From sequence record MK295204: 64,000 nt of DNA. The stretch is one strand, 5' to 3'. The notes beneath the pieces are model-generated. The model had not been told where the DNA came from, did no database searches, and was given only the letters and a program-made list of their open reading frames with translations. The DNA comes from Shigella phage vB_SdyM_006. The position numbers were made by a program, and so were the translations under genes. Below are positions 18,289 through 29,736 of this stretch, one piece after another; position 1 is the first letter of the stretch; the number at the start of each line of letters is the position of its first letter.

Positions 18289-19436
18289 AGTTCGTCCATA
18301 GCATTAAGTTCTTCAATAGTAGAACGAATACCAGATGAACCAAAAACGTGTTCTTCCACTTTTAGATTCATTAAGTCTTCAACTTCTTGTTCTACTGATT
18401 CGTCATTAATCATCTGTCCTAATTTATAACGTGTTTCAATAGCTTCACGGAACGGGCCATGTTTTAATAATGGTCCCCAGAATGCTACGCATCTTGTATC
18501 TTTAGCACGCCAATTCTTTTCTTCAGGAACGATTTCACCCGTTTCTGTGTCTAAAAATGCTTGAGTATACCAGCCATTTTTAGGTTTAACAACAAATCCT
18601 AATTCCAGACCCATATCAAGCAAACCAGAATAAGGGTCAATACCGCCATCAAATGTGACATCAATAAAGAATTTAGATTTTTCTTTAACTGTACGTGATT
18701 TTTCGACATTTAATACAAATTGATAACCTTGAAGATCTGTACCATCTTTAATTTGACGTCGACCAATAATATATACATTATCAGCAGAATACATTACACC
18801 TGTTCCGCCTGTCATAACAGTTTTACTAAACATTTCCATTGTTTCAATTGTATGGTTAATCCCGACACATGGAATATCTTTTAATGTAAAATATGGAGTG
18901 GCCATACGGAACAATGATTTTAACTGCTTGGCCCGTGTCATATCTGCAACAGATTTTTCATTTAATGCATCTTCAACTTCTTTCTTAGAAGCCAGGTTAC
19001 CAATAGAGTCGATAAATACAATAACCTTTTCACCTCGTTCAATAGTTTCTAATTGATTAATCATATCAATTTTAAGTTCTTCAACGTTTTTAACTGGTGT
19101 ATGAACAACACGGTCTGGGTCAACACCCATAGAACGAAGATAAGCACTTGTGATACCAAATTCTGAGTCATAAAATAAGCAAATTGCATCTTTATATGCT
19201 TTCATATAAGCAGCAACTAATGTTAAACCCATATTTGATTTAAAGTGTTTACTTGGACCAGCTAAAATAGTAATACCAGATTGAAGGCCACCTGTGATAT
19301 CACCGGACAATGCAATATTTAATGTTGGAATTTTAGTTCTTACAACAGACTTCTCATTAAAAAACTTTGATTCACTAAGTACAGAAGTCATTTTATTTGT
19401 TGAAGCTTTCATTAAACGTGTTTTTAAGTCTGACAT
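18285..19436 (-). CDS. uvsX: UvsX recombinase (RecA/Rad51-like)
   Basis: 383 aa; MSDLKTRLMKASTNK...ILAGPSKHFKSN...near-collinear with remembered T4 UvsX. Confidence 0.9.
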   Translation of the reverse strand: MSDLKTRLMKASTNKMTSVLSESKFFNEKSVVRTKIPTLNIALSGDITGGLQSGITILAGPSKHFKSNMGLTLVAAYMKAYKDAICLFYDSEFGITSAYLRSMGVDPDRVVHTPVKNVEELKIDMINQLETIERGEKVIVFIDSIGNLASKKEVEDALNEKSVADMTRAKQLKSLFRMATPYFTLKDIPCVGINHTIETMEMFSKTVMTGGTGVMYSADNVYIIGRRQIKDGTDLQGYQFVLNVEKSRTVKEKSKFFIDVTFDGGIDPYSGLLDMGLELGFVVKPKNGWYTQAFLDTETGEIVPEEKNWRAKDTRCVAFWGPLLKHGPFREAIETRYKLGQMINDESVEQEVEDLMNLKVEEHVFGSSGIRSTIEELNAMDEL

Positions 19437-19490
19437 TTTTTATCCTTTAAAAATGACAAACATAATATTTTACTCAAATCACAAATTAAT

Positions 19491-20405
19491 TTAGATTTCC
19501 CAAATTGGGCCTTGAACTATAATATCTTCGTATTTAGGTAATGCATAAATGCATTGTACATTACATTTAAAATATATAAATTCTGCTAAACCTGGATGGA
19601 ATACTTTTTCTGGGTTTTCTTCATATATGATAGTTGGTTTAGACTTCAATGCATGGTAATAATTAGGCTTATTTAATTTTAATAATTCACAATCAGGATA
19701 TTTTTCTTTATCCCAAGAATCATTAGGGTCTGTTATAACCAATTTCAAATCATATCTTTTACATAGTTTATACACATAATCAAAATCATAACATTTATCT
19801 GATATCCTAAACGGAAAGAATACTGTATTCTTCCAATCAAAGTCTATACAAGATTGTTGCATAAACTTCTCAGGAACACCAGGACGAATTACTTCTTGTG
19901 TGACAAGTATTTTATCACTATACGCCCCATAACTAACTAGAACGTCTTTCTGGCACTTATTTAAGACTGTTGTATAGATACTTGAGTTAACAGATTCAAC
20001 ATCAGTATAAATGAACTCGTCTATATATGATCTTGGATTCAAAGGGTCTTTAGTAATATTAAAATTATAAAATACTGGAAAGGTTCCTTTATATCCTGTT
20101 ATATCAGAAACTACTGCATCTAAATGGTAAAATTCGGCAATAGAATCGATAATAAATGTATTATATTCCCAGAAATATTTTCGAGTTTTATATGCATTTT
20201 CTTGATAAACAACTTCTTCAAAAATCACGTTAGGAAAATATTCTTTAAGTTCAGTTATATCTTCGCATTGTAAACTATGAGGAATTACAATTACATCTCC
20301 ATCTTGGTACCGATTTAAATGTAATTGAAGATTACCGTCTTTTAACAGGGAGTATTTCCCTGTTTTATAAGACCTCATAGAATAGATAGGCACAATTAAA
20401 TTCAT
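19491..20405 (-). CDS. hypothetical protein in beta-gt position (candidate transferase, unproven)
   Basis: 304 aa, ATG start; occupies the slot of beta-glucosyltransferase next to gene 42 but shows no resemblance to remembered T4 beta-gt. Confidence 0.3.
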   Translation of the reverse strand: MNLIVPIYSMRSYKTGKYSLLKDGNLQLHLNRYQDGDVIVIPHSLQCEDITELKEYFPNVIFEEVVYQENAYKTRKYFWEYNTFIIDSIAEFYHLDAVVSDITGYKGTFPVFYNFNITKDPLNPRSYIDEFIYTDVESVNSSIYTTVLNKCQKDVLVSYGAYSDKILVTQEVIRPGVPEKFMQQSCIDFDWKNTVFFPFRISDKCYDFDYVYKLCKRYDLKLVITDPNDSWDKEKYPDCELLKLNKPNYYHALKSKPTIIYEENPEKVFHPGLAEFIYFKCNVQCIYALPKYEDIIVQGPIWEI

Positions 20406-20415
20406 AATTATTCTC

Positions 20416-21108
20416 TTATAGAAATGAATTTACATATTCTATATCACGTTCAAAAATATGCGCAGAAACCATTGAATGTGTGTAATGGCCAATTTCTACG
20501 TTACATTCTGAAGCAATATATTCCATTAATTTACCTTGTAAGTAAATATCAAGTTGTAATACTATAGCACAATTTTGAGAACGCATATGAGTATGGGCAT
20601 ATAATTTATTATCACGAATATAATATGTGACAGAATCAGTACATGGATATTCCAATGTTTCGTCGTCAAGTGATAATAATGCTTGGTCTTGTTCTTGAAG
20701 AATTTGAAAAACAACACGTCTCGAACCAGGTTTTTCTTTAAGTTCTTTAAGTAAAACTGGAAGTTGAGCTACAATACGAGGACCATAGAATGTATTGAAG
20801 TTTTCTGGAAGGATATCGCTTTTAGGCTTATCAATAAATTTAGCAACATTAGGATATTCTTTAAATGCTTCAATAGCGTTGGTCCCACCAGAAATCATAA
20901 ATTGCCAGAAATCTTCTGCGTACTTATAATCAATACGGTTTATTTTTTCGTCACTAAATTTATATGTAGAAGGGTCCATTACACGAAATGTTAATGACCC
21001 TATTTCTCTACATGGCCCAATACGAGAATCTACTTTAAATTCATATAGATCAATAACGGTTTCATTAACAGCTTTAAAAGCTTCTTCAAAAGTATTTCTG
21101 ATAATCAT
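20416..21108 (-). CDS. 42: dCMP hydroxymethylase-like (thymidylate synthase superfamily) gp42
   Basis: 230 aa; EYPCTDSVTYYIRD (active-site Cys region) and RSQNCAIVLQLD resemble gp42/TS motifs; position as T4 gene 42. Confidence 0.7.
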   Translation of the reverse strand: MIIRNTFEEAFKAVNETVIDLYEFKVDSRIGPCREIGSLTFRVMDPSTYKFSDEKINRIDYKYAEDFWQFMISGGTNAIEAFKEYPNVAKFIDKPKSDILPENFNTFYGPRIVAQLPVLLKELKEKPGSRRVVFQILQEQDQALLSLDDETLEYPCTDSVTYYIRDNKLYAHTHMRSQNCAIVLQLDIYLQGKLMEYIASECNVEIGHYTHSMVSAHIFERDIEYVNSFL

Positions 21109-21479
21109 AACATTTCCTGTAATTTTTTAGAGTAATTCATTAAAAACACTAATAATGGTTGTGCCTCTGGTGGTGTTTGTTGTAATTTTTTAGATTCAAC
21201 GACACCATTATACACTGGAAATCCTTTAGCCTTTTTGGTTTGACCTATTTTAATGGCTAATTTATTACGTGCATTAAACAATTCGATCATTTGTTTATCT
21301 ATTTCTTGAATAGCTTTACGATCTTCGTCTAATGTGTCTTTAACATGCCCTTTTAATTGTTCTTTTAATTGTTCTTTGATTAATCTTTGATTACATTCTT
21401 TAATAAATCCTTTAGGAAACGGTGGTACTTCTATCCCAGGATAAATAGGCCAAACCGGTGCGCCATCTATATGATGCAT
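21105..21479 (-). CDS. chorismate mutase-like (AroQ class) protein
   Basis: 124 aa; residues ~45-124 DRKAIQEIDKQMIELFNARNKLAIKIGQTKK...YSKKLQE align to AroQ catalytic positions (R, R, K, E, S, Q); ATGA coupling with gene 42. Confidence 0.45.
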   Translation of the reverse strand: MHHIDGAPVWPIYPGIEVPPFPKGFIKECNQRLIKEQLKEQLKGHVKDTLDEDRKAIQEIDKQMIELFNARNKLAIKIGQTKKAKGFPVYNGVVESKKLQQTPPEAQPLLVFLMNYSKKLQEML

Positions 21480-21664
21480 TATTTCACCTCTATTGAAATG
21501 TTTATACGTTCTACAGGTCTAGGAAGTTCTAAATAAATATTATTTCCTTTAGACCTTACTTTATATCCTTGGGCTTTAAATGTATCTATAATGATTTGTT
21601 TACAGCTACTTGAATAAATCACACCATTTTTATTAGGAGTATCGGTCTCAATTAATTTTACCAT
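21479..21664 (-). CDS. hypothetical protein
   Basis: 61 aa, ATG start, 1-nt overlaps on both sides. Confidence 0.3.
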   Translation of the reverse strand: MVKLIETDTPNKNGVIYSSSCKQIIIDTFKAQGYKVRSKGNNIYLELPRPVERINISIEVK

Positions 21665-21873
21665 TATTTACCTACTATTTTGCCAGTTTCTGGTCCTTCA
21701 TACAAAGTGGACTTTACTATAAAGTCACTTAACCCTTTATTATATCTTTTAAACTTTGACACTTCAGAATCACATATTAATTGAGCTAGATTCTCTTGAT
21801 ACATCATTAAGCAGGGAATAACCCTGCTTAAAAAGGTTTTCTTTGTATTAATTTTCTGGATATCTTGATTCAT
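21664..21873 (-). CDS. hypothetical protein
   Basis: Track start is GTG at 21882; first ATG at 21873; overlaps 3' end of next ORF. Confidence 0.25.
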   Translation of the reverse strand: MNQDIQKINTKKTFLSRVIPCLMMYQENLAQLICDSEVSKFKRYNKGLSDFIVKSTLYEGPETGKIVGK

Positions 21874-23014
21874 CGTCAGCACCGTCTAAAACTTTAATTT
21901 CAATTTCGTCTGGACGACGATCATTTTTAGATAATTGACGTTTATAATATCGTTCACAATATTTACAAGTCGTTCCGCAGATTTCGTTAGCACAATCAAA
22001 ATCAGGGTGTTTAAACCATCGTTTCTCTAAAAATCCATCTAACAATGATGTTTCTAAATACACCTGGTGTTCATGATCTAATTCTGATTTACCATTATAA
22101 ATTGTTTCTAATGGTTTCCAAAGTTCAAGTAAATTACCTGTGAATTGTTCTGATGCATAGGCTTCTAGAACTTTAACAATATATTCTGTTGTGCCTGTAC
22201 GTCCAGAAACTTTAAATTGAGAAATACCAATAGAACGATATAACTCTAAATCTTGTGGACGAACAAATCGAGTTCTAAGCCAGTTAAACGGGTCTGTATC
22301 ACGGGCTTTAATACAATGTTGCATTGGATATCCACCTAAAGATTGAGCATCTTCAGCTGTTATATCTGTAGAATGGAAAATATAACAAGAATCTCTGTAA
22401 GAACAGTGTGTTGTATATCCTTTACCAGCATTAGAACAAAATTCATTAACTAAGACTTCAAAAATAATATTATTTTTATTACAGAACTCAGCTGCACGTT
22501 TTAAGAACGAAACACTTCGGTTTTTATGAATACCACAACAAACTTTTTTAATATTATATTGGTCATGAAGATATTTTATTTGTGTGACAGCATCAACGTG
22601 TAGAATAGTCGAAACTTCAAATTGAATATGTTTATTTACTTCACGGATGATTTCCATAATAATTGGATTGGCAACAGTCACACGATAAACGCCAATACTC
22701 CATAAATATTGAACATAATCTTGGATGGCTTTCTTTTTCCAATCCTGTAGTTCACGTTTAGAGCCAGGGTTAATCGTGTTCAAAGTATAGTTGAAACATA
22801 TTCCTAAATCATTACAACGTTGTACGTATATTTCTAGTTGTTCGTCTTTGACATCCGGTAATCTAAAATCTGGTCGTGCTGCAGCAAAAGCCATTGCACG
22901 TGTACTTCCATAAACTTCATTAATAACACTATTAGGATATTTTTCGTTTAATTCAACGATTTTATCAAGTAAAGCCAAATCAAAATTTGTTCCTACTTTA
23001 AATGTATTTTTCAT
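21848..23014 (-). CDS. peptidase U32-family-like protein (RlhA/TrhP/UbiU-type, candidate Fe-S hydroxylase)
   Basis: Track start TTG 23032 lies in terminator hairpin; ATG at 23014 has AAGGA Shine-Dalgarno; GISQFKVSGRTGTTEY resembles U32 signature G[VI]xx[FL]K[IV]EGR; EFCSNAGKGYTTHCS Cys motif; C-terminal CxxxxCxxxCxxC. Confidence 0.45.
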   Translation of the reverse strand: MKNTFKVGTNFDLALLDKIVELNEKYPNSVINEVYGSTRAMAFAAARPDFRLPDVKDEQLEIYVQRCNDLGICFNYTLNTINPGSKRELQDWKKKAIQDYVQYLWSIGVYRVTVANPIIMEIIREVNKHIQFEVSTILHVDAVTQIKYLHDQYNIKKVCCGIHKNRSVSFLKRAAEFCNKNNIIFEVLVNEFCSNAGKGYTTHCSYRDSCYIFHSTDITAEDAQSLGGYPMQHCIKARDTDPFNWLRTRFVRPQDLELYRSIGISQFKVSGRTGTTEYIVKVLEAYASEQFTGNLLELWKPLETIYNGKSELDHEHQVYLETSLLDGFLEKRWFKHPDFDCANEICGTTCKYCERYYKRQLSKNDRRPDEIEIKVLDGADDESRYPEN

Positions 23015-23030
23015 TTTAGTCCTTATTACC

Positions 23031-23049
23031 AAAAAGGCCTTTCGGCCTT
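23031..23049 (-). terminator. intrinsic terminator hairpin (AAGGCC-GAAA-GGCCUU plus U-run)
   Basis: aaaaaggcctttcggcctt; near-identical copy at 47483-47502. Confidence 0.55.
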
Positions 23050-23052
23050 ATA

Positions 23053-23259
23053 TTATTTTTTCTTTAACTGTGTTGCTGCGTCTTCTAATTTAAGAGACAT
23101 ATCTTTAAAATTAACATCTTTGCCTTGAATACCAGAAACAATGCCAGAAACAAGAATCATAAATGCTAATAATACCGCAAACAATAATACAAAAACCGAA
23201 CACGCTACACCAATAAGAATACCTAATACAAGATTTTTAAAATAGTTTAATACTTTCAT
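23053..23259 (-). CDS. small membrane protein (imm-like by position)
   Basis: 68 aa, hydrophobic LVLGILIGVACSVFVLLFAVLLAFMILVSGIV; lies between genes 42 and 43 as imm in T4. Confidence 0.35.
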   Translation of the reverse strand: MKVLNYFKNLVLGILIGVACSVFVLLFAVLLAFMILVSGIVSGIQGKDVNFKDMSLKLEDAATQLKKK

Positions 23260-23819
23260 AATTGTCCTAATTTCGTGTTAATATAATTTGTTACATCTGC
23301 ATAAGAATAACCAGATAGAACATTATTATTTGAATCATGTTCTAATAACTTAAAATTTCTAATACCAAATTCTTCATAAAACATGTCATACACCGTAATG
23401 ATATCATTGAACTGTTCTTTTGATAACTTAATTAAGTCATCTTCAAAATCAGAATTAATTTTATTTCTAGTTAATCCGATAACCAAACATTTGTTTTTTA
23501 AATTAATAAGGTCCATAACATAATTATTAAATGTTTCTTGAGTCTCTTTAATAACAAATGATTTACCATGGTGTTTACGATAGATATAATAAACCATATT
23601 ACTTAAAAAGCAACGGTCTAATATATACTTTTTAGATGGGTCTAAATGATTTAGCATTGTATCAAAAATTGCTACTTCATTACGAGTAGCAATAGTAAAT
23701 AATCCATCTGAAGTTTTCTTAGGGAACTCTAATAAAGTAAATCCTTCATTATTGATTAAGTGTTGTATTAGAGTTGTTTTACCAGTATTATCAGGTCCTT
23801 CAATAGCAACAATATTCAT
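23256..23819 (-). CDS. P-loop kinase (thymidylate/nucleoside-kinase-like)
   Basis: 187 aa; MNIVAIEGPDNTGKTTL Walker A at N-terminus typical of small nucleotide/sugar kinases; ATGA coupling. Confidence 0.5.
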   Translation of the reverse strand: MNIVAIEGPDNTGKTTLIQHLINNEGFTLLEFPKKTSDGLFTIATRNEVAIFDTMLNHLDPSKKYILDRCFLSNMVYYIYRKHHGKSFVIKETQETFNNYVMDLINLKNKCLVIGLTRNKINSDFEDDLIKLSKEQFNDIITVYDMFYEEFGIRNFKLLEHDSNNNVLSGYSYADVTNYINTKLGQL

Positions 23820-24193
23820 TTTATCTCCGGAGTATATGGTTTGGCCGATTCTAAAGTAGACATTCTAACATGGTTTTTAAATGTTTGTGGGTCCATTGCT
23901 TTGTCATCGATAATCCAGTCATAAGATGGTTTATGGGTCAAAAGCTCATGATATTTCAATCCAATTTTATTAAGATTAATAACGAGTCCAGGAACTATTT
24001 CTGATGCTATTTTACCAGGTCCAACAGAAGTCATACCACGAGAAGTATAAAGTGTGATATGATGGCCCTGGTCGTACAGGGCGTTAATCATAGCTACCAT
24101 TTCTTCATCAGGTACAAAGTTCTCATAATCTCTATTATTATTCCATAATGTGATTGTATTATCAATGTCAAAAAACAGTTTTAAAGGTTTCAT
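23816..24193 (-). CDS. HAD-superfamily phosphatase
   Basis: 125 aa; LFFDIDNTIT = HAD motif I DxDxT; ATGA coupling with flanking genes. Confidence 0.55.
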   Translation of the reverse strand: MKPLKLFFDIDNTITLWNNNRDYENFVPDEEMVAMINALYDQGHHITLYTSRGMTSVGPGKIASEIVPGLVINLNKIGLKYHELLTHKPSYDWIIDDKAMDPQTFKNHVRMSTLESAKPYTPEIK

Positions 24194-25839
24194 TTAATTA
24201 AAATCCATTGTTTATGCAATTCTGATTGAATATGATTCATCATATAAACTTGTCCGGTTTCTCTATCATGGAGTTCCCATTTAGAAGGACATTTAGTAAT
24301 AATAGAGGCTGTCACGGGTTCTTTTGTTTCAGGAACTATTGCTCCATCTGTAAGGACACGTGGAAGCCCTTTAACAAATGAAGTTAATAAGTACATTCCA
24401 TAAAAATATGCAGATACCGCTTTTAATGGATTATTTTTAAAATATCCACCTAATGCTATCCAGATAATTCCTAGCCATAATTTATGTTTTGGCGTAACAA
24501 AATCTTGGTCTAAATAATCTGTCATTAAAGGTTTAATATCAACTATTGCTGAATCTCCTTCAATAGATAGACCACCCCATAATGGGTCTGCATTAAACTC
24601 GTCATATCCACTTAAAGCATAGAGAATTTTAGCTTCGTCATAAGTTCGTGGACCATAAAGTTCAGTGTGTCCAAAATATCCTCGTGGGTCAATAAATTTT
24701 ATTTCATTATCATCACTAAGCATAATATTACTAAAATTTAAGTCACCATGAATTAATTGATATTCTGTTTCTTTTAAATGAGGTAAAACTCTTTTTAAAA
24801 GACGGTTCAATGAGCCAATTTTAACCCCGTTAACATATTTGATTCCAAAAGAATCAATCATGTCTTGAATAGATGCACACCGGTCAATAACTTTTGTATA
24901 AGCTTCTTGTTTAATGTCGGCATCAATCTGATTCTTTTCAGGAATATATCTATCCCCAAATACACTTTCTTTGAGAATTTTTGGCAATAATTCTGGTGTA
25001 AACTTTTCATACATAGAAGAACCGTAGATTCTTTCCATTGTCATGATATTACATGTTTCTGTAGGTGTCATATAAATCATAGGAACATTACGGACACCTT
25101 TTAAATTAAGATACCAATTAAGTTCCTTTTTCTGAAGTTCTTCACCTTTAGGGTTTAAAGCTTTTTTAATAACATAACCATCTTTTAATGTAATTTCATT
25201 AAACTCTCGATTTAATTCTTTACTATCATGGGCTTGCCTTAATTTAGGAATATCGCCAATATCAATTAAATCAAATAAACTTTCTTCTTGAAAATCTGAA
25301 GCTTTTAAAAACTCTACAAAATCATGCCCTTTAGTTATATAATCAGGAATAGGTTCTAAAAAATCAAAATTTGTTTGATAGATACCAACGATGTTTCCAC
25401 CTGTAGCACCAACGTTATCGATTTTTCCATCTTTAAAACTATATCGACATTTATCCCCGTAAGTATAAATTTTATTTTTACCCCATTCGAATTCACGTCG
25501 TCCGTAAAATTTAGGAATAACATCACACCAATTGTAAATGACATTATGTCCATCAACATCAGAATGGATTTTATTAATTGCATACATAGAACCGTATGCT
25601 TCATCAACACATCTAACAGTTATAGTTAAGCCCATAGTTTTTGCATAACCTTGAACAAGGTCTTTAAATTTACTATGGACTACAACAATAATTTCTTCTG
25701 CCCCAACATTAGTATACAAATCATATAAATGTTTTAAAACAGTATGTTGTTTATAATTGACTAAGACTTTTGGAATATGTGATGTAATAGGATAAAGTCT
25801 GGTCGCAAGACCAGAACCAAGAATAACAACTTTCTTCAT
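24190..25839 (-). CDS. bifunctional sugar-1-phosphate nucleotidyltransferase / APH-choline-kinase-like kinase
   Basis: 549 aa; N-terminal VVILGSGLATRLYP (G-x-G-T-R-L NTP-transferase motif); C-terminal LIHGDLNFSNIML...IDPRG (Brenner kinase motif). Confidence 0.6.
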   Translation of the reverse strand: MKKVVILGSGLATRLYPITSHIPKVLVNYKQHTVLKHLYDLYTNVGAEEIIVVVHSKFKDLVQGYAKTMGLTITVRCVDEAYGSMYAINKIHSDVDGHNVIYNWCDVIPKFYGRREFEWGKNKIYTYGDKCRYSFKDGKIDNVGATGGNIVGIYQTNFDFLEPIPDYITKGHDFVEFLKASDFQEESLFDLIDIGDIPKLRQAHDSKELNREFNEITLKDGYVIKKALNPKGEELQKKELNWYLNLKGVRNVPMIYMTPTETCNIMTMERIYGSSMYEKFTPELLPKILKESVFGDRYIPEKNQIDADIKQEAYTKVIDRCASIQDMIDSFGIKYVNGVKIGSLNRLLKRVLPHLKETEYQLIHGDLNFSNIMLSDDNEIKFIDPRGYFGHTELYGPRTYDEAKILYALSGYDEFNADPLWGGLSIEGDSAIVDIKPLMTDYLDQDFVTPKHKLWLGIIWIALGGYFKNNPLKAVSAYFYGMYLLTSFVKGLPRVLTDGAIVPETKEPVTASIITKCPSKWELHDRETGQVYMMNHIQSELHKQWILIK

Positions 25840-25886
25840 TTCAAATCCTTATTAATTTAGTGTATAAGAATAGTATCATTAAATTC

Positions 25887-26519
25887 TTATAAGCTCTCAC
25901 TTTTAAGGGCTTTACCTAATGACCCACCAGGATGAAATGTTAAAAAGTCTTGACGTGTAAATCCACGTTCTGCAGATAGATTAATAGCAAAGGTGTCAAT
26001 TAGTGCTAAAAGAACTGTTGTGCTTGTAGTTGGAGCGAGATTGTTCTCATCTGATTCTACAACGTTACCAGTACAAAAATCATAGTCAAAAATAGAACGT
26101 GTACCTTGGTATAGGTCTTCATTACAATGTAACAAGATTTGTTTAACATTTGGTCTAATCTGACGTAGATGTTGAGCAGCATATAAAAGTTCTTGTGTTT
26201 TACCAGAACGAGAAATATGAATAATAACATCATTAGGACCAATAAAACCTGCATCGCCGTGAGAATAATGAGCTGTATTTAAATACATACTTGGAATTCC
26301 AAGTGAAGCAAATGTTTCTGAAGCCTTAGTGGCGATATTAGCATTTTTACCAATGCCTGTTATGATTACTCGACTTTCATAGTTAGATAAACCAGGCGCT
26401 CTTAGAACGTCTAATATTTGATTATACTTATCGGCATCCATTGTAATAGTAAGTCCAAGCGCATGTAAAGTTTTAGCTTGAATCATAATAGAACTACAAG
26501 CTCTTTTAATTGGATTCAT
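25887..26519 (-). CDS. SIS-domain sugar-phosphate isomerase (KdsD/GutQ-like arabinose-5-phosphate isomerase)
   Basis: 210 aa; VIITGIGKNANIATK...HISRSGKTQEL...APTTSTTVLLALIDTFA...HPGGSLGKAL aligns with KdsD SIS domain. Confidence 0.65.
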   Translation of the reverse strand: MNPIKRACSSIMIQAKTLHALGLTITMDADKYNQILDVLRAPGLSNYESRVIITGIGKNANIATKASETFASLGIPSMYLNTAHYSHGDAGFIGPNDVIIHISRSGKTQELLYAAQHLRQIRPNVKQILLHCNEDLYQGTRSIFDYDFCTGNVVESDENNLAPTTSTTVLLALIDTFAINLSAERGFTRQDFLTFHPGGSLGKALKSESL

Positions 26520-26969
26520 TTATTTTTTCTCGCAAAGTTTCTTTAATGTAGGAATGTCATACTTAACAACCTGAGAATAATCACCAGTTGTCATTGCATT
26601 TTGTTGCATAACACGGTATGTGATAACAGCTCGTTGATAACAATTGAGCTCAACTTTTTTAGGTTGTTCCATTGGAGGAAGATTTCTATCTTTAGCTAAT
26701 TGAGCGTCAACTCGTGCTGAAGCTTCTGCGATTTCAGCACGAACACGTAATCTGTCTGCTTCTCTTTTGGCATCAAGTTGACGTTCTAATTCAGCTCTAG
26801 ATTGATATTGTGGATTTTTATTAAAATAAGCGATTCCATTAGATGTTGATGCTAACTGCCCAGATTGTTGCATTCTAGCTTCACGTTTAGCTTTATAAGC
26901 TTCGTATTCAGCTTGGCTCATACATCCAGTCATAGTTAAACAAATAAGGCCGATTAAAATGTGTTTCAT
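26520..26969 (-). CDS. predicted lipoprotein
   Basis: Track start TTG; ATG at 26969 with GAGGAG Shine-Dalgarno; MKHILIGLICLTMTGC signal plus lipobox; Ala/Arg/Gln-rich mature part. Confidence 0.45.
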   Translation of the reverse strand: MKHILIGLICLTMTGCMSQAEYEAYKAKREARMQQSGQLASTSNGIAYFNKNPQYQSRAELERQLDAKREADRLRVRAEIAEASARVDAQLAKDRNLPPMEQPKKVELNCYQRAVITYRVMQQNAMTTGDYSQVVKYDIPTLKKLCEKK

Positions 26970-27024
26970 AATATGTCTCCTCAATAAATTTAATCGGAAC
27001 TATATCACTTATTTTGTGTCAGCA

Positions 27025-29736
27025 TTAAAAATCAAACAAATCAGCTAAAGAAGATTTTTTCTCATAATCGATTTTAGCGGCTGATGTAAATGATGTTAAA
27101 GGTTTAACAAAAGTTTTATTAAACAATTCTTGATAGTCAAGATTCCGTTTAACAAATTCTTCAATTTCTTGTGGTAAATCAGATCCAGATGGCCAAGAAA
27201 TACATTTTTCATTGAACGGATTGCCTTCTTTTAATGGAAGAACTTTAACTTTCTCACCTTCAAAAATAGGAGGAGCACCATCAACATGTTTTGTTGCTCG
27301 ATTATATGCTAATACACCTTTAACATGATAAGGACATCCTTTAGTAGGAAATCCTTCTGCATCAGAATACTTCATAAGATTATTAGCACTTGATACAGAA
27401 GCTATTGAGCTATAATCGTTTTCTCTGAATTGTTTTTCAAATTCTTTATAATATTCTTGTAATGATTCTTCACCTTCTTGAAGCATTCTTCGAATACATT
27501 CTTTTAACGCAACTTGACAACTTTTTGGTGTACTAGATTTTTGTGTTTCTAGACCCATGATTTTTAATTCTGGTGTTTCGTATCTGGTACCTTCCATATC
27601 CCAGACATTTAATGCATATCGTTTCTTAGCAGTCCAGAATCCACCAAGACCTTTTGTTCCTAGAGGAGGACCAGCAATGGCTTCTCGGTCCATGAACATC
27701 AAATGTTCTCTGTTGTTCATGTATTCTTTTAATTCACGATACGCTGTATCAATTGCAGGTTCCATTTTCTTAGAAGCAAATTCTGATAAGAAATCTACTA
27801 ATTTTTGTGTATCATTATTAAATTTGTGTTCAATTTTATCAACTAAATTATCAACACACACATAAACAGAATCCGTGTCACCTGCAATGACATAAGAATG
27901 ATTTTCTGTTCCAAGTGTTGCATTTAAATATTCGTTAATTTTACGTTCAATCCATTGGATTGCTAGTTGTCCAAATAATGTAATAGCTGATGCATTTCGT
28001 AAATCATAGTAACGGAAGTAAATATTACCTAAAGCGCCATAACAAGAGTTAATCAATAATTTTCTGTTAATTTGGGCTGTATTAGATGTTACAATAACCC
28101 ACTCGCAGTATTCTAATAATTTCTCTAAAGATTCTTTAGAAGCAGTATTTAATAAAGCTTTAAAGTCTTCATTAAAATCAAATCTGCCGTCAACTTCTGG
28201 TAATGTTAAGTTACCAAATTGATCTTTATGAATTGCAGCTTTTACTAATTCTGCATTACGTTTAGCTGCTAACATATATCCTTTATGTTCTTTACGCTGT
28301 AAGAATACTTTTTCTACTTCTTCAGGAATAACGCCTTTATATGTTTTATCATACATCCAACCATTAGGAGAACATGAATAAACATCACTTGGTCTTGGAG
28401 CAGTTTTATTAATATAATCCGACATTGGCGAAACAGGGAAGCTTCCTACTAATGTTTCTGGACTAATATTACCTTGTCTAATGATACTTGGGTACAGACT
28501 TGTAAGGTCAAAACTTAAGACCCAACGATACGCATTAGGAATAGGTTCTTTAACATAAGCACCTGGATAACTCTGTCTGATATGTTGTTTTAATTCAGGA
28601 ATAACTTTCTTTTTATCTTTAAGTGAGTTAAAGATAATTGCATCCCAAGTTTTAATAGGACTAAACACTGATTGAATTTGCATTTTAGAATAATATCCAA
28701 GAGATAATGCAAGTTCAATAAACTGACGTTTCTTATCAATTGCCTGTACACGATTAACGTCTTCGATGTTATAACTAATATATCGGTTATGATTTAACAT
28801 CCTTAATTTATTAATCGCCCCGTCATATTTTAATTTACCTTTACCAGTTTCGTATTCAGCAATAAAATCTAAATTATAAGCTGGCTGATTAGTAAAACTA
28901 AATTTCTTATATAAGTCTAAATAATCAAGAATAGAAACACCCATGATATCAAAAATTTGTTTATCACCATAAATGTTTTGAATTACTTTAGAACGTATTT
29001 TACGACATGGAGACATTCTCTTTGCAACTCGTTCACCTAAAACATTAGTGATTCTATTAATGATATAAGGAATATCAAAACCTTCTACGTTCCAACCAGT
29101 AAAAATAACAGGAGGTTTTTCTTCCCATAATCGAACATATTCTAATAATAATTCTTCTTCTGTTTCGAAAGGAAGATAAACAACTTTATCAATAATTTCT
29201 TGAGATAATTCGTCACCACCTTGATTTTCTGGTAACGCAGCTAATTTAGAGTCCCATTTAGAGACACTGCCAAAAGCAGAATTTAATAAGTCAAATACAT
29301 AAAACTTATCATCAATCGAATCGTAATGGGTGATTGCATCTATTTCGTATAGAGCTAGTTCTGGTTTAGGAAAATCAGTACCAGTAACTTCGATATCACA
29401 GTTTGCAATACGAATGTATTTTCGATTATACATAACATCGTAAGCATAATTATCGCTGATGTACGCTAATTTAAAATCATCCATACCCATGACTTCTTGG
29501 CCTACATCTTTCATTCGTTTAGACCAATCACGTGCATCTTGGATAGTCTTAAATTTTTTACGTGTACAATACTTTCCATAGATATCTTTATATTTTGTTT
29601 CAGTTCCTTCTACTGTGTGCCAAAACAATGATGGTTCATATTGTACCGTTCGACGTCGTTCTTTACCATCTGAATCGATATATCGTTCAAAAATGTTATT
29701 ACCAATTTGTTCTACATTTAAATAAAATGGTTTCAT
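27025..29736 (-). CDS. 43: DNA polymerase gp43 (family B)
   Basis: 903 aa; MKPFYLNVEQIGNNIFERYID..., exo and pol motifs (FDIE, YGDTDS-like GDTDSVYV, SLYPSII) collinear with remembered T4 gp43. Confidence 0.9.
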   Translation of the reverse strand: MKPFYLNVEQIGNNIFERYIDSDGKERRRTVQYEPSLFWHTVEGTETKYKDIYGKYCTRKKFKTIQDARDWSKRMKDVGQEVMGMDDFKLAYISDNYAYDVMYNRKYIRIANCDIEVTGTDFPKPELALYEIDAITHYDSIDDKFYVFDLLNSAFGSVSKWDSKLAALPENQGGDELSQEIIDKVVYLPFETEEELLLEYVRLWEEKPPVIFTGWNVEGFDIPYIINRITNVLGERVAKRMSPCRKIRSKVIQNIYGDKQIFDIMGVSILDYLDLYKKFSFTNQPAYNLDFIAEYETGKGKLKYDGAINKLRMLNHNRYISYNIEDVNRVQAIDKKRQFIELALSLGYYSKMQIQSVFSPIKTWDAIIFNSLKDKKKVIPELKQHIRQSYPGAYVKEPIPNAYRWVLSFDLTSLYPSIIRQGNISPETLVGSFPVSPMSDYINKTAPRPSDVYSCSPNGWMYDKTYKGVIPEEVEKVFLQRKEHKGYMLAAKRNAELVKAAIHKDQFGNLTLPEVDGRFDFNEDFKALLNTASKESLEKLLEYCEWVIVTSNTAQINRKLLINSCYGALGNIYFRYYDLRNASAITLFGQLAIQWIERKINEYLNATLGTENHSYVIAGDTDSVYVCVDNLVDKIEHKFNNDTQKLVDFLSEFASKKMEPAIDTAYRELKEYMNNREHLMFMDREAIAGPPLGTKGLGGFWTAKKRYALNVWDMEGTRYETPELKIMGLETQKSSTPKSCQVALKECIRRMLQEGEESLQEYYKEFEKQFRENDYSSIASVSSANNLMKYSDAEGFPTKGCPYHVKGVLAYNRATKHVDGAPPIFEGEKVKVLPLKEGNPFNEKCISWPSGSDLPQEIEEFVKRNLDYQELFNKTFVKPLTSFTSAAKIDYEKKSSLADLFDF

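What the first reader, a model, noticed from the sequence alone, without database searches (positions are those of the whole stretch)
23256..26519. Operon-like nucleotide-sugar pathway: SIS isomerase, HAD phosphatase, nucleotidyltransferase-kinase fusion, P-loop kinase
Seen in sequence: four consecutive, translationally coupled genes with clear motifs (KdsD/GutQ-like SIS domain; DxDxT HAD motif; GxGTRL nucleotidyltransferase N-domain fused to an APH/choline-kinase-like HGDLN domain; N-terminal Walker A kinase). Inference: ribulose-5-P -> arabinose-5-P (SIS) -> arabinose (HAD) -> arabinose-1-P (kinase) -> NDP-arabinose (nucleotidyltransferase), i.e. a self-contained donor-sugar pathway. Established knowledge: T4 glucosylates hmC using host UDP-glucose, and RB69 has been reported to arabinosylate hmC. 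This window is not RB69 (gp43 is clearly diverged), so this would be a related but possibly distinct system; the P-loop kinase is not explained by the simple pathway.
Basis: partly seen in the sequence, partly recalled or inferred. Interest (0 to 1): 0.75.

Follow-up and report, generated by a model that had tools for sequence, protein, structure and literature searches.

The report
Phage genes for arabinosylating DNA cytosine
These four phage genes are an already described toolkit that makes UDP-arabinose and a modified cytosine nucleotide, so the phage can coat its DNA cytosines with arabinose; two neighbouring genes may be an undescribed oxygen-free way to hydroxylate cytosine.

Summary
The window is a Bragavirus (99.5% identical to Proteus phage phiP4-3). 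All four genes are orthologues (39-71% identity) of genes in the RB69/HY126 cytosine-arabinosylation cluster. That cluster was characterised in 2025-2026, and Bragaviruses were named as carriers. The kind is therefore already known.

Three corrections apply:
- The acceptor base is 5-hydroxycytosine, not hmC. The adjacent thymidylate-synthase homologue carries the published L143E/D169N/N177D signature.
- The experimentally supported sugar route is Ru5P -> Ara5P -> Ara-1,5-P2 -> Ara-1-P -> UDP-Araf. The kinase acts before the phosphatase, and there is no free arabinose.
- The "unexplained" P-loop protein has a thymidylate-kinase fold. It travels with the base-modifying genes, not the sugar genes, so it is most likely a 5-hydroxy-dCMP kinase.

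Only one arabinosyltransferase was found, which predicts mono-arabinosylation.

The interesting part lies just outside the coordinates. A U32-family Fe-S-type protein (at least 80% identical in 221 phage records) sits beside a chorismate mutase. In unrelated viral contigs, U32 sits in glycosyltransferase/kinase/sugar operons that lack the TS-type hydroxylase. Some of these operons carry DAHP-synthase::chorismate-mutase fusions. This suggests a prephenate-dependent, O2-independent cytosine hydroxylase.

The parts
25887..26519 (-). Single-domain SIS arabinose-5-phosphate isomerase (Ru5P <-> Ara5P). Orthologue of RB69 gp55 and the HY126 API.
   Evidence: Pfam SIS E=1.7e-10. The best NCBIfam hits are KpsF/GutQ (3e-31) and KdsD (3.9e-29), with no heptose or glucosamine isomerase hit. 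The best PDB matches are the APIs 3etn, 5uqi and 2xhz. It is 71% identical to the HY126 API. KdsD residues K59, H88, E111, E152 and H193 are invariant. It has no CBS domains.
25240..25839 (-). N-terminal sugar-1-phosphate nucleotidyltransferase domain of the AfhE-like fusion (about aa 1-200; the boundary is approximate). Ara-1-P + UTP -> UDP-Araf.
   Evidence: Pfam NTP_transferase E=1.3e-7 over aa 3-81. NCBIfam hits to UDP-glucose and MurU-type uridylyltransferases. PDB 1jyk. G8, G10, R14, L15 and K24 are invariant across 4 phage genera.
24190..25239 (-). C-terminal APH/choline-kinase-like domain of the AfhE-like fusion (about aa 201-549). Ara5P -> Ara-1,5-bisphosphate.
   Evidence: Weak Pfam hits to Fructosamin_kin, APH and RIO1 around aa 338-407. 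H364, G365, D366, N371 and D384 are invariant. The whole protein is 51% identical over its full length to the HY126 AfhE orthologue. PHROG 4098 E=7e-243.
23816..24193 (-). Small HAD phosphatase, AfhF-like. Ara-1,5-bisphosphate -> Ara-1-P.
   Evidence: DIDNT motif I. PDB 9iqw, a 134-aa 'capsule biosynthesis protein', E=8.5e-49; PDB 1xpj E=3e-8. TIGR01689 capsule biosynthesis phosphatase E=4e-11. It is 64% identical to the HY126 orthologue. ATGA overlaps on both sides.
23256..23819 (-). Thymidylate-kinase-fold P-loop nucleotide kinase, orthologue of RB69 gp45. Proposed 5-hydroxy-dCMP kinase.
23053..23259 (-). 68-aa hydrophobic ORF, translationally coupled to the kinase gene. Function unknown.
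   Evidence: ATGA overlap. Weak DUF308 hit. Annotated as gp180 in phiP4-3.
23034..23049 (.). GC-rich palindromic hairpin followed by a T-run. A terminator-like boundary of the coupled gene run.
   Evidence: The minus strand reads AAGGCCGAAAGGCC followed by TTTTT. The terminator scan reports it on the plus strand.
21848..23014 (-). U32-family ('peptidase U32') TIM-barrel protein with 10 invariant cysteines, orthologue of RB69 gp50. Proposed prephenate-dependent, O2-independent C5 hydroxylase.
   Evidence: Pfam Peptidase_U32 E=5e-11, above the cutoff. It is 83% identical to the HY126 protein and at least 80% identical in all 221 phage records that hold it. It aligns with E. coli UbiU, UbiV, RlhA and TrhP through the E-x-F...C...C region. 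Invariant Cys set. AF2 pLDDT 87.1; the top PDB hit is U32 protein 5d88. The true start is the ATG at 23014, preceded by TAAGGA.
21105..21479 (-). Small AroQ-type chorismate mutase (chorismate -> prephenate).
   Evidence: Pfam CM_2 E=9.5e-11, above the cutoff. NCBIfam chorismate mutase models. EcCM residues R11, R28, K39, S84 and Q88 are invariant; the D48/R51/E52 region is shortened. Close copies occur only in Proteus, Providencia and Morganella phages. Diverged copies sit at the same position in Yersinia, Serratia, Enterobacter and Pectobacterium phages.
20416..21108 (-). Thymidylate-synthase homologue: flavin/O2-dependent dCMP 5-hydroxylase (5hodCMP synthase). It occupies the position of T4 gene 42.
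   Evidence: PDB 9iqc and 9iqu, which match the HY126 enzyme described as crystallised, E=1e-110. It is 73% identical to the HY126 protein. L143E, D169N and N177D are present; T4 gp42 keeps D169.
19491..20405 (-). Putative DNA 5-hydroxycytosine arabinosyltransferase (orthologue of RB69 gp46:47). It occupies the position of T4 beta-gt.
   Evidence: It is 51% identical to the HY126 299-aa protein. PHROG 3891 E=3e-138. No Pfam or NCBIfam hit. A 27%-identical homologue (E=6e-18) lies next to U32 in an unrelated viral contig.

Best explanation
The four genes are the Bragavirus copy of the known Straboviridae system that replaces DNA cytosine with arabinofuranosyl-5-hydroxycytosine.

Sugar branch:
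- The SIS protein diverts host ribulose-5-P to D-arabinose-5-P.
- The C-terminal kinase domain of the 549-aa fusion phosphorylates C1, giving arabinose-1,5-bisphosphate.
- The 125-aa HAD enzyme removes the 5-phosphate.
- The N-terminal nucleotidyltransferase domain of the fusion then makes UDP-arabinofuranose.

This logic matches the ADP-heptose pathway (GmhA / HldE / GmhB).

Base branch:
- The neighbouring thymidylate-synthase homologue hydroxylates dCMP to 5-hydroxy-dCMP using flavin and O2.
- The P-loop, thymidylate-kinase-fold protein most likely phosphorylates 5-hydroxy-dCMP so that it reaches the dNTP pool.
- After replication, the single 304-aa glycosyltransferase adds arabinose from UDP-Araf to the 5-OH of cytosine in DNA.

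Status of each step:
- Shown here: gene structure, orthology, motif and catalytic-residue conservation, folds.
- Shown elsewhere for orthologues: 5hodCMP synthase activity, AfhE and AfhF activities, and the chemistry of RB69, DLP3 and HY126 DNA.
- Inferred: the same activities in this phage, the kinase's substrate, and mono-arabinosylation.
For: Identity of the window:
- It is 99.5% identical to Proteus phage phiP4-3, genus Bragavirus.
- PMC13326640 names Bragaviruses among the genera with the syntenic cytosine-arabinosylation cluster.

Orthology to HY126:
- API 71%, AfhE-like 51% over the full length, AfhF-like 64%, Tmk-like 39%.
- TS homologue 73%, glycosyltransferase 51%, U32 83%.

Matches to solved structures:
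- HAD matches 9iqw at 8.5e-49.
- The TS homologue matches 9iqc/9iqu at 1e-110.

Residue and motif checks:
- The TS homologue has L143E, D169N and N177D. D169N is the published predictor of 5hodCMP synthases, and T4 gp42 lacks it (PMC13326640).
- The KdsD active-site residues K59, H88, E111, E152 and H193 are invariant in the SIS protein.
- The nucleotidyltransferase and kinase motifs are invariant across four genera.

Synteny:
- The cluster fills the gene-43-to-uvsX interval, where T4 has gene 42 and beta-gt.

Pathway order and enzyme roles:
- These come from PMC13326640, sections 24-27. That paper cites He et al. 2026 (Nat Chem Biol) and Mahler et al. 2025 (Cell Host Microbe).

The P-loop kinase:
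- A Tmk-like gene accompanies the 5hodCMP synthase in Rhizobium phage RL38J1, which uses hexoses and has no arabinose genes.
- A Tmk-like gene accompanies glycosyltransferase plus U32 in minimal metagenomic clusters that lack API and AfhE.

Arabinosyltransferase count:
- No RB69 gp3-type second arabinosyltransferase is in the window.
- None is in any Proteus phage record.
Against: - Nothing has been measured for this phage. Its DNA composition is unknown, and none of its proteins has been assayed.
- The primary biochemical papers (He 2026, Mahler 2025) could not be read here. I rely on the summary of them in PMC13326640, whose Table 1 still lists the older free-arabinose order.
- The Tmk-like protein falls below Pfam's and NCBIfam's thymidylate-kinase cutoffs.
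- RB69's T4-gp1-type dNMP kinase already phosphorylates 5hodCMP in vitro. A dedicated 5hodCMP kinase is therefore not strictly required.
- The glycosyltransferase has no profile-library hit. It is assigned only by orthology.
- The nucleotide used (UTP or another NTP) is not determined for this protein.
Confidence: 0.85

Rival explanations
1. The HAD enzyme dephosphorylates arabinose-5-P to free arabinose. The kinase domain then makes arabinose-1-P, which is activated and transferred to hydroxymethylcytosine, as first reported for RB69.
For: - The domain content is compatible with this route.
- Table 1 of PMC13326640 still words the roles this way.
- Thomas et al. 2018 reported ara-hmC in RB69 (PMC6024577).
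Against: - Later NMR and MS work shows an ether link to 5-hydroxycytosine. It calls the hmC assignment erroneous (PMC13326640; PMC13390438).
- AfhE of HY126 is reported to be an Ara5P kinase, and AfhF to act on Ara-1,5-P2.
- The TS homologue here has the hydroxylase signature D169N, not the T4 gp42 state.
Confidence: 0.07
2. The sugar genes are auxiliary metabolic genes that alter the host envelope (Kdo/LPS or capsule precursors derived from arabinose-5-P), not the phage DNA.
For: - The API is homologous to KdsD, GutQ and KpsF.
- The HAD protein matches the 'capsule biosynthesis phosphatase' family TIGR01689.
- PHROGs files both proteins under 'moron, auxiliary metabolic gene'.
Against: - The genes sit inside the replication and nucleotide-metabolism module, replacing T4 gene 42 and beta-gt.
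- They co-occur with the 5hodCMP synthase and a DNA glycosyltransferase across many genera.
- Orthologous clusters belong to phages whose DNA was shown to be arabinosylated.
- No Kdo-8-P synthase or CMP-Kdo synthetase is present in the window.
Confidence: 0.03
3. The P-loop protein is not a 5-hydroxy-dCMP kinase. It could be an ordinary dTMP kinase, a kinase for another nucleotide or sugar intermediate, or a non-catalytic partner.
For: - Annotated as 'thymidylate kinase'.
- RB69 gp159, a T4 gp1 homologue, already converts 5hodCMP to 5hodCDP.
Against: - The protein is only 16-20% identical to real Tmks and falls below the family cutoffs.
- Its gene is always embedded in hydroxy-pyrimidine glycosylation clusters. 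These include clusters without arabinose genes (RL38J1; L015, L045 and L046). This argues against a sugar substrate and for a role tied to the modified base.
Confidence: 0.25
4. The U32-like protein is a sugar or heterocycle reductase, or a protease, as labelled in databases and in Table 1 of PMC13326640. On this view it has no role in hydroxylation.
For: - The database names are 'peptidase' and 'collagenase-like protease'.
- The published table gives 'Sugar or heterocycle reductase'.
- The second cysteine of the canonical U32 motif is glycine in the phage family.
- The TS homologue alone yields 5hodC in aerobic E. coli.
Against: - Every U32 protein with a known role (RlhA, TrhP, UbiU/V) is tied to O2-independent, prephenate-dependent hydroxylation. 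One of them produces 5-hydroxycytidine (PMC5727448, PMC6599085, PMC10990095).
- A chorismate mutase sits next to the U32 gene in this window.
- DAHP-synthase::chorismate-mutase fusions sit next to it in unrelated viral operons.
- In 35 of 36 non-Straboviridae loci no TS-family gene lies within the flanks, yet the glycosyltransferase and Tmk-like genes are adjacent.
Confidence: 0.3

Closest known systems
Afh/Aat cytosine hydroxylation-arabinofuranosylation system of Escherichia phages HY126 and RB69 (Mosigvirus): RB69 gp45-gp55; HY126 AfhE and AfhF
   Same: - Every component is orthologous: API, bifunctional kinase/uridylyltransferase, HAD phosphatase, Tmk-like kinase, U32 protein, TS-type 5hodCMP synthase and first arabinosyltransferase.
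- Identities are 39-83%.
- The genomic slot, between gene 43 and uvsX, is the same.
   Different: - The Tmk-like gene lies directly after the HAD gene, as in Dhakavirus JS10, rather than after the glycosyltransferase.
- A chorismate mutase and three small ORFs are inserted between U32 and the TS homologue.
- There is no RB69 gp3-type second arabinosyltransferase, so mono- rather than di-arabinosylation is predicted.
- A 154-aa lipoprotein-like ORF precedes the API.
Acinetobacter phage DLP3 / Lazarusvirus tri-arabinosyl-5hoC cluster (gp76-gp83)
   Same: API, AfhE-like fusion (about 53% identical), HAD, TS homologue, Tmk-like kinase and first glycosyltransferase.
   Different: The Acinetobacter clusters have two extra arabinosyltransferases and neither a U32 protein nor a chorismate mutase. 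Acinetobacter is not among the ten commonest organism names for the U32 hits (at most 3 records could be hidden), against 57 Acinetobacter records for AfhE.
ADP-L-glycero-beta-D-manno-heptose pathway of Gram-negative bacteria (GmhA, HldE, GmhB). This comparison rests on established knowledge of that pathway.
   Same: The logic is identical: SIS isomerase, then C1 kinase giving a sugar bisphosphate, then HAD phosphatase removing the distal phosphate, then nucleotidyltransferase. In both, the kinase and the nucleotidyltransferase are fused in one protein.
   Different: - The substrate is a pentose, not a heptose.
- The kinase domain is APH/choline-kinase-like, not PfkB.
- The nucleotidyltransferase is GalU/MurU-like, not a cytidylyltransferase-fold enzyme.
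- The product is UDP-Araf, used on DNA rather than on LPS.
T4 gene 42 (dCMP hydroxymethylase) with alpha- and beta-glucosyltransferases
   Same: - The strategy is the same: a TS-superfamily enzyme modifies dCMP before replication, and a glycosyltransferase decorates DNA after replication.
- The chromosomal position is the same.
   Different: - T4 uses host UDP-glucose and needs no sugar pathway.
- T4's base is hydroxymethylcytosine.
- T4 gp42 keeps D169 and uses folate.
U32-family O2-independent hydroxylases of E. coli: RlhA (ho5C2501 of 23S rRNA), TrhP (ho5U34 of tRNA), UbiU/UbiV (ubiquinone)
   Same: - The window's neighbouring U32-like protein shares the Pfam U32 domain.
- Its only specific structural neighbour is the U32 TIM-barrel protein 5d88.
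- The E-x-F...C...C region aligns.
- Like those enzymes, it is linked to prephenate, here through adjacent chorismate mutase genes.
- RlhA carries out the same chemical change, hydroxylating cytosine C5.
   Different: - Identity is only 18-21%.
- The spacing of the cysteines differs.
- An extra C-terminal CX4CX3CX2C motif is present.
- The substrate would be a deoxynucleotide or DNA, not RNA or a quinone precursor.
- The activity is untested.

Membership tests
Phage arabinosyl-5-hydroxycytosine DNA-modification system (RB69/HY126/DLP3 type) | Thymidylate-synthase homologue with the 5hodCMP-synthase signature: D169N, plus N177D and an acidic residue at L143 (E. coli ThyA numbering) | tested here: met
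   The alignment with E. coli ThyA, the HY126 enzyme and T4 gp42 shows E, N and D at positions 143, 169 and 177. The match to PDB 9iqc/9iqu is 1e-110.
Phage arabinosyl-5-hydroxycytosine DNA-modification system (RB69/HY126/DLP3 type) | Bifunctional AfhE-type protein: N-terminal sugar-1-P nucleotidyltransferase fused to a C-terminal APH-like kinase | tested here: met
   It is 51% identical to the HY126 orthologue over 549 aa. Both domains are detected. The catalytic motifs are invariant.
Phage arabinosyl-5-hydroxycytosine DNA-modification system (RB69/HY126/DLP3 type) | AfhF-type small HAD phosphatase | tested here: met
   It is 64% identical to the HY126 orthologue. PDB 9iqw E=8.5e-49. The DxDxT motif is present.
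Phage arabinosyl-5-hydroxycytosine DNA-modification system (RB69/HY126/DLP3 type) | Phage-encoded arabinose-5-phosphate isomerase | tested here: met
   It is 71% identical to the HY126 API. The KdsD catalytic residues are conserved.
Phage arabinosyl-5-hydroxycytosine DNA-modification system (RB69/HY126/DLP3 type) | At least one DNA arabinosyltransferase (RB69 gp46:47 type) adjacent to the TS homologue | tested here: met
   The 304-aa ORF at 20405-19491 is 51% identical to the HY126 299-aa protein. This is homology only, with no profile-library hit.
Phage arabinosyl-5-hydroxycytosine DNA-modification system (RB69/HY126/DLP3 type) | Virion DNA in which dC is replaced by arabinosyl-5-hydroxy-dC | not testable with these tools
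   This needs nucleoside LC-MS or NMR of phage DNA. No such data for phiP4-3 or other Bragaviruses turned up in the papers read here.
Phage arabinosyl-5-hydroxycytosine DNA-modification system (RB69/HY126/DLP3 type) | Second or third beta-arabinosyltransferase (RB69 gp3 / DLP3 gp76-77 type) giving di- or tri-arabinosides. This is a variable feature, not required for membership. | tested here: not met
   tblastn of RB69 gp3 finds nothing in the window. It also finds no Proteus phage among 212 records.
KdsD/GutQ/KpsF arabinose-5-phosphate isomerases | SIS domain with active-site residues K59, H88, E111, E152 and H193 (the KdsD residue list is recalled from the 2xhz study) | tested here: met
   All five positions are invariant columns in the alignment with E. 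coli KdsD.
KdsD/GutQ/KpsF arabinose-5-phosphate isomerases | Tandem C-terminal CBS domains (two-domain KdsD/GutQ architecture) and scores above the NCBIfam equivalog cutoffs | tested here: not met
   The protein ends right after the SIS domain. Its scores of 102-109 bits fall below the cutoffs of 204-505. It resembles the single-domain APIs 3etn and 5uqi.
Thymidylate kinase (Pfam PF02223 / TIGR00041) | Profile score above the curated cutoff | tested here: not met
   Pfam gives 22.1 bits against a cutoff of 27. TIGR00041 gives 26.2 bits against 83. I therefore do not file it as a dTMP kinase.
Thymidylate kinase (Pfam PF02223 / TIGR00041) | P-loop NMP-kinase fold closest to Tmk | tested here: met
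U32-family prephenate-dependent hydroxylases (RlhA/TrhP/UbiU/UbiV); applies to the neighbouring gene at 23014-21848 | Pfam Peptidase_U32 domain above cutoff and a U32-type TIM barrel | tested here: met
   Pfam gives 42.7 bits against a cutoff of 22.4. The top Foldseek PDB hit is U32 protein 5d88.
U32-family prephenate-dependent hydroxylases (RlhA/TrhP/UbiU/UbiV); applies to the neighbouring gene at 23014-21848 | Four-cysteine [4Fe-4S] motif of the family | tested here: inconclusive
   The first and third cysteines align with the E. coli proteins, but the second is Gly. Other invariant Cys lie nearby (C203, C233), and a CX4CX3CX2C tail is present.
U32-family prephenate-dependent hydroxylases (RlhA/TrhP/UbiU/UbiV); applies to the neighbouring gene at 23014-21848 | Functional dependence on prephenate and independence from O2 | not testable with these tools
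   The support is contextual only: an adjacent chorismate mutase and DAHPS::CM fusions in related operons.

The most novel reading that the evidence does not exclude
The U32-family protein next to the finding (23014-21848) is a prephenate-dependent, O2-independent pyrimidine C5 hydroxylase acting on a deoxynucleotide or on DNA. The small chorismate mutase (21479-21105) supplies its oxygen donor.

In T4-like phages of facultative anaerobes, this would be the anaerobic counterpart of the flavin/O2-dependent thymidylate-synthase-type 5hodCMP synthase. The pairing would mirror the E. coli pairs TrhO/TrhP and UbiIHF/UbiUV.

In other, uncultured phages, U32 would be the only hydroxylase. Their operons read glycosyltransferase-API-AfhE-Tmk-[DAHP synthase::chorismate mutase]-HAD-U32, or dUTPase-Tmk-glycosyltransferase-U32.

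I found no paper in the searchable library that makes this link. PMC13326640 labels the protein 'sugar or heterocycle reductase'. It also states that the RNA hydroxylation pathways use no homologue of the 5hodCMP synthase, without noting that a U32 gene sits in the cluster. Two paywalled primary papers could not be checked.
Probability: 0.5. Interest if true: 0.8.

Novelty: already known. Interest (0 to 1): 0.4.

Why it matters
For the four genes as flagged, the value lies in correct annotation. Database records call them 'phosphoheptose isomerase', 'thymidylate kinase' and 'hypothetical'. They actually predict that this Proteus/Shigella-infecting phage has arabinosylated 5-hydroxycytosine DNA. 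That modification affects sensitivity to restriction enzymes, CRISPR-Cas and type IV systems. It also affects sequencing and engineering of a candidate therapeutic phage.

The neighbouring U32/chorismate-mutase module matters more, if the proposal holds:
- It would be the first DNA- or deoxynucleotide-directed member of the U32 hydroxylase family.
- It would be the first viral use of prephenate as an oxygen donor.
- It would explain how gut phages make an O2-requiring DNA modification in an anoxic habitat.
- The phage protein is compact (about 360-390 aa) and highly conserved. It could give the field a tractable system for an in vitro U32 assay, which PMC10990095 says is still lacking.

Tried and rejected
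- A heptose or glucosamine isomerase identity for the SIS protein: rejected. No such profile hit appears, the API families score best, and the KdsD catalytic residues are conserved.
- A second arabinosyltransferase: RB69 gp3 finds nothing in the window and no Proteus phage. A structurally unrelated glycosyltransferase elsewhere in the genome cannot be excluded. Pfam scans of ten other hypothetical ORFs of 185-473 aa found no glycosyltransferase.
- Promoter evidence for an operon: the sigma-70-type scan gives 43 sites against 46.6 expected, which is uninformative. T4-type early and middle promoters were not modelled.
- PDB sequence search for the Tmk-like and U32 proteins: it returned nothing useful, so I used structure prediction and fold search instead.
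- A strict link between U32 presence and host oxygen lifestyle: only partly supported. Acinetobacter phage clusters lack U32, but so does the E. coli Dhakavirus JS10. I treat U32 as an accessory gene, not as a strict rule.
- KDO-8-P synthase identity for the DAHP_synth_1 domains near U32, which would use Ara5P: rejected. The DAHP synthase models score about 1e-47 against about 1e-14 for the KDO8PS models, and the domains are fused to chorismate mutase.
- The two primary papers (He 2026, Mahler 2025) are not held in the library.

Full report
OBSERVATION

- a 210-aa SIS protein (26519-25887);
- a 549-aa nucleotidyltransferase-kinase fusion (25839-24190);
- a 125-aa HAD-type protein (24193-23816);
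- a 187-aa P-loop protein (23819-23256).

Profile searches confirm the domains. SIS scores E=1.7e-10. NTP_transferase scores E=1.3e-7 at the N-terminus of the fusion. Weaker fructosamine-kinase, APH and RIO hits surround the HGDLNFSN motif. Thymidylate_kin and AAA hits cover the P-loop protein. Pfam misses the HAD protein, but NCBIfam finds the capsule-biosynthesis phosphatase family TIGR01689, and motif I, DIDNT, is plain in the sequence. All four proteins fall into PHROG families with E-values from 1e-36 to 1e-243.

The transcription order is SIS, fusion, HAD, P-loop. Only the fusion/HAD and HAD/P-loop junctions are ATGA overlaps; SIS and the fusion are 47 nt apart, with a TAAGGA ribosome-binding site between them. 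The coupled run continues into a 68-aa hydrophobic ORF. It ends at a GC hairpin followed by a T-run near 23049-23034.

WHERE THE WINDOW COMES FROM

Positions 19400-27100 are 99.5% identical to Proteus phage phiP4-3, a member of Straboviridae, genus Bragavirus. The P-loop protein is 100% identical to a protein of Shigella phage vB_SdyM_006.

The gene order downstream of the DNA polymerase (gene 43) is:
- a 154-aa ORF;
- SIS, fusion, HAD, P-loop and the 68-aa ORF;
- a U32 'peptidase';
- two small ORFs;
- a chorismate mutase;
- a thymidylate-synthase homologue;
- a 304-aa protein;
- uvsX.

In T4 the same interval holds imm, gene 42 (dCMP hydroxymethylase) and beta-glucosyltransferase.

WHAT IT IS

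The literature held here shows that this cluster type has been solved. Lee et al. (NAR 2026, PMC13326640) show that RB69 and Acinetobacter phage DLP3 replace cytosine with mono-, di- or tri-arabinofuranosyl 5-hydroxycytosine. The sugar is joined by an ether bond to an oxygen that comes from 5-hydroxy-dCMP. A thymidylate-synthase homologue makes that nucleotide using a flavin and O2.

The paper assigns RB69 gp55 as the arabinose-5-P isomerase. It relays He et al. (Nat Chem Biol 2026) on phage HY126. AfhE is a bifunctional Ara5P kinase and UDP-arabinose pyrophosphorylase. AfhF is a Mg-dependent phosphatase that converts arabinose-1,5-bisphosphate to arabinose-1-P. It also lists Bragaviruses among the genera with the syntenic cluster. 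A second paper states outright that the original arabinosyl-hmC assignment for RB69 was erroneous (PMC13390438). As early as 2018, Thomas et al. proposed the SIS and fusion genes as UDP-arabinose candidates (PMC6024577).

TESTS OF ORTHOLOGY DONE HERE

Compared with HY126 (PP658200.1), the identities are:
- SIS protein 71%;
- fusion 51% over its whole length;
- HAD protein 64%;
- P-loop protein 39%;
- TS homologue 73%;
- 304-aa protein 51%;
- U32 protein 83%.

The HAD protein matches PDB 9iqw at E=8.5e-49. The TS homologue matches 9iqc/9iqu at 1e-110. Those PDB sequences match the HY126 proteins.

In an alignment with E. coli ThyA, the HY126 enzyme and T4 gp42, the window's TS homologue has E, N and D at ThyA positions 143, 169 and 177. 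T4 gp42 keeps D169. D169N is the published predictor of cytosine hydroxylases.

The SIS protein keeps KdsD residues K59, H88, E111, E152 and H193. It scores best against the KpsF/GutQ/KdsD models and the single-domain APIs 3etn and 5uqi. No heptose or glucosamine isomerase model appears among the hits.

In the fusion, the GxGxxxRL and PK motifs of the nucleotidyltransferase are invariant across Proteus, Escherichia (two genera) and Acinetobacter phages. So are the HGDxxxxN and IDPRG motifs of the kinase.

THE 'UNEXPLAINED' P-LOOP KINASE

Sequence alone is weak for this protein. It falls below the Pfam and NCBIfam thymidylate-kinase cutoffs, and the PDB sequence search finds only P-loop noise.

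Its genomic associations are informative. A Tmk-like gene sits beside the 5hodCMP synthase in Rhizobium phage RL38J1, which attaches hexoses and has no arabinose genes. Tmk-like genes also sit beside the glycosyltransferase and U32 genes in metagenomic phage clusters that have no API or AfhE at all.

The kinase therefore belongs to the base branch of the pathway, not the sugar branch. Its most likely role is 5-hydroxy-dCMP kinase. One caveat is that RB69's T4-gp1-type dNMP kinase can already perform this step in vitro.

HOW IT MOST LIKELY WORKS

- Sugar branch: Ru5P -> Ara5P (SIS) -> Ara-1,5-P2 (fusion, C-terminal domain) -> Ara-1-P (HAD) -> UDP-Araf (fusion, N-terminal domain).
- Base branch: dCMP -> 5-hydroxy-dCMP (TS homologue, flavin and O2) -> diphosphate (Tmk-like and/or gp1-type kinase) -> triphosphate -> DNA.
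- Final step: the 304-aa glycosyltransferase adds arabinose to the 5-OH of cytosine in DNA.

The sugar branch has the same logic as the ADP-heptose pathway (GmhA, HldE, GmhB), but uses different kinase and transferase folds.

RB69 gp3, the second arabinosyltransferase, has no homologue in the window. It also has none in any Proteus phage among 212 matching records. I therefore predict mono-arabinosylation.

None of these activities has been measured for this phage.

WHAT LIES JUST OUTSIDE THE COORDINATES

The U32-family gene (23014-21848) stands out for several reasons.
- Its protein is at least 80% identical in all 221 phage records that carry it, from Escherichia to Shewanella phages. The other cluster proteins are only 39-73% identical.
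- It is the only part of the region with megablast-level DNA identity to most other phage genera.
- It passes the Pfam U32 cutoff.
- It aligns with E. coli UbiU, UbiV, RlhA and TrhP through the E-x-F...C...C region.
- It has ten invariant cysteines, including a C-terminal CX4CX3CX2C motif.
- Its model (pLDDT 87.1) has the U32 protein 5d88 as its only specific structural neighbour.

Every U32 protein with a known role is tied to O2-independent, prephenate-dependent hydroxylation. RlhA is required for 5-hydroxycytidine in 23S rRNA (PMC5727448, PMC6599085, PMC10990095).

In this window, a chorismate mutase, the enzyme that makes prephenate, lies two small ORFs downstream of U32. It keeps EcCM residues R11, R28, K39, S84 and Q88. 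Close copies occur only in Proteus, Providencia and Morganella phages. Diverged copies occupy the same position in Yersinia, Serratia, Enterobacter and Pectobacterium phages.

COMPARATIVE TEST OF THE U32 IDEA

A database search found 333 homologues (E <= 0.001). Among the best 120 listed, those below about 60% identity form a family of roughly 360-aa proteins that are 47-58% identical to the window's. I fetched 47 IMG/VR loci plus four metagenome loci.

All 15 Straboviridae loci have the TS homologue. Among the 36 other loci, a TS-profile search at E<=1 finds a TS-family gene in only one. That one has the ordinary ThyA residues L143, D169 and N177.

Within the same 36 loci, the U32 gene has these neighbours within the flanks on the same strand. 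Some loci are near-duplicates and some contigs are short, so the counts are not fully independent.
- A homologue of the window's glycosyltransferase: 24 loci.
- A Tmk-like kinase: 24 loci.
- A HAD protein: 15 loci.
- An AfhE-like protein: 12 loci.
- An API: 10 loci.

Two recurrent operons appear:
- glycosyltransferase-API-AfhE-Tmk-[DAHP synthase::chorismate mutase fusion]-HAD-U32 (L036, L041, L043);
- dUTPase-Tmk-glycosyltransferase-U32, next to a PolIII-alpha gene (L015, L045, L046).

The DAHP-synthase domains score about 1e-47 against DAHP synthase models and about 1e-14 against KDO-8-P synthase models.

A glycosyltransferase needs a hydroxyl acceptor on the base. In these phages the only candidate for making it is U32, and some of them bring both the entry enzyme of the shikimate pathway and the prephenate-forming enzyme.

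My reading is that U32 is an oxygen-independent, prephenate-dependent C5 hydroxylase. In T4-like phages of facultative anaerobes it would back up the O2-dependent TS-type enzyme. This mirrors the E. coli pairs TrhO/TrhP and UbiIHF/UbiUV.

Evidence against this reading:
- The second canonical U32 cysteine is glycine in the phage family.
- The TS homologue alone suffices in aerobic E. coli.
- E. coli phage JS10 lacks U32, as do the Acinetobacter phages.
- According to PMC10990095 (2024), no U32 enzyme had been reconstituted in vitro.
- Flanks of 10 kb do not prove that a TS homologue is absent from a contig.

I put the probability at about 0.5.

I found no paper in the searchable library that makes this link. 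PMC13326640 calls the protein a 'sugar or heterocycle reductase'. The two paywalled primary papers could not be checked.

VERDICT

It is outdated on the acceptor base and on the order of steps.

The four-gene unit is a member of an already known system whose presence in this genus has been published, so its novelty is low. The adjacent U32/chorismate-mutase pair is the part worth an experiment.

Noticed in passing
window 21848-23014 (-) and 21105-21479 (-): A U32-family protein with 10 invariant cysteines, at least 80% identical in 221 phage records, lies two small ORFs upstream of a small chorismate mutase. Together they look like a prephenate-dependent, O2-independent hydroxylase module inside the cytosine-modification cluster.
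   Followed up: yes
L041 4618-11083, L043 3327-10070, L036 4411-11080 (IMG/VR contigs 3300021256_000085, 3300033463_004353, 3300011005_000048): These are non-Straboviridae viral operons reading glycosyltransferase-API-AfhE-like-Tmk-like-[DAHP synthase::chorismate mutase fusion]-HAD-U32. No thymidylate-synthase homologue lies within the fetched flanks.
   Followed up: partly
L015 6232-11792, L045 8424-11086, L046 8552-11086: A minimal cluster reads dUTPase_2-Tmk-like-glycosyltransferase-U32, beside a PolIII-alpha replicase. The glycosyltransferase is 27% identical to the window's 304-aa protein. There are no arabinose genes, which suggests a different sugar on a U32-made hydroxyl.
   Followed up: partly
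window 26520-26984 (-): This 154-aa ORF has a stop codon that abuts the API start codon. Its N-terminus MKHILIGLICLTMTGC resembles a lipoprotein signal with a lipobox. It falls in PHROG 20821 (function unknown). It sits where T4 has imm and imm.1.
   Followed up: no
window 23053-23259 (-) and 23034-23049: A 68-aa hydrophobic ORF is ATGA-coupled to the Tmk-like gene. A GC hairpin followed by a T-run comes next and separates this gene run from the U32 gene.
   Followed up: partly
window 21848-23032 (-): The mechanical ORF for the U32 gene starts at a TTG at 23032. The real start is probably the ATG at 23014, six bases after TAAGGA. This agrees with the 1167-nt CDS annotated in phiP4-3.
   Followed up: yes
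L037 8692-9954: An IS605 OrfB/TnpB-type gene (Cas12f1-like TNB domain, 420 aa) is inserted between the sugar genes and the U32 gene of a metagenomic phage cluster.
   Followed up: no
L007 (phage JS10) 5440-10175 and L008 (phage Lazarus) 5304-12524: The arabinosylation clusters of E. coli Dhakavirus JS10 and of the Acinetobacter Lazarusvirus both lack the U32 gene. JS10 shares the window's AfhE-HAD-Tmk order. The window therefore looks like the JS10 arrangement with a U32/chorismate-mutase insertion before the TS homologue.
   Followed up: partly
window 16909-18288 (-): A 459-aa gene annotated as a homing endonuclease lies between uvsX and gene 40 in the phiP4-3 record. The window also differs from phiP4-3 by about 245 nt of indels further along (the ORF coordinates are offset near 5944-6885). 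This fits the 100% protein match to Shigella phage vB_SdyM_006.
   Followed up: no
public annotation of NC_055737.1 (L001): The RefSeq product names are misleading. The HAD phosphatase is called 'phosphoheptose isomerase'. The Tmk-fold kinase is called 'thymidylate kinase'. The 5hodCMP synthase is called 'thymidylate synthase'. The U32 protein is called 'peptidase'. The AfhE-like fusion and the glycosyltransferase are called 'hypothetical'.
   Followed up: yes
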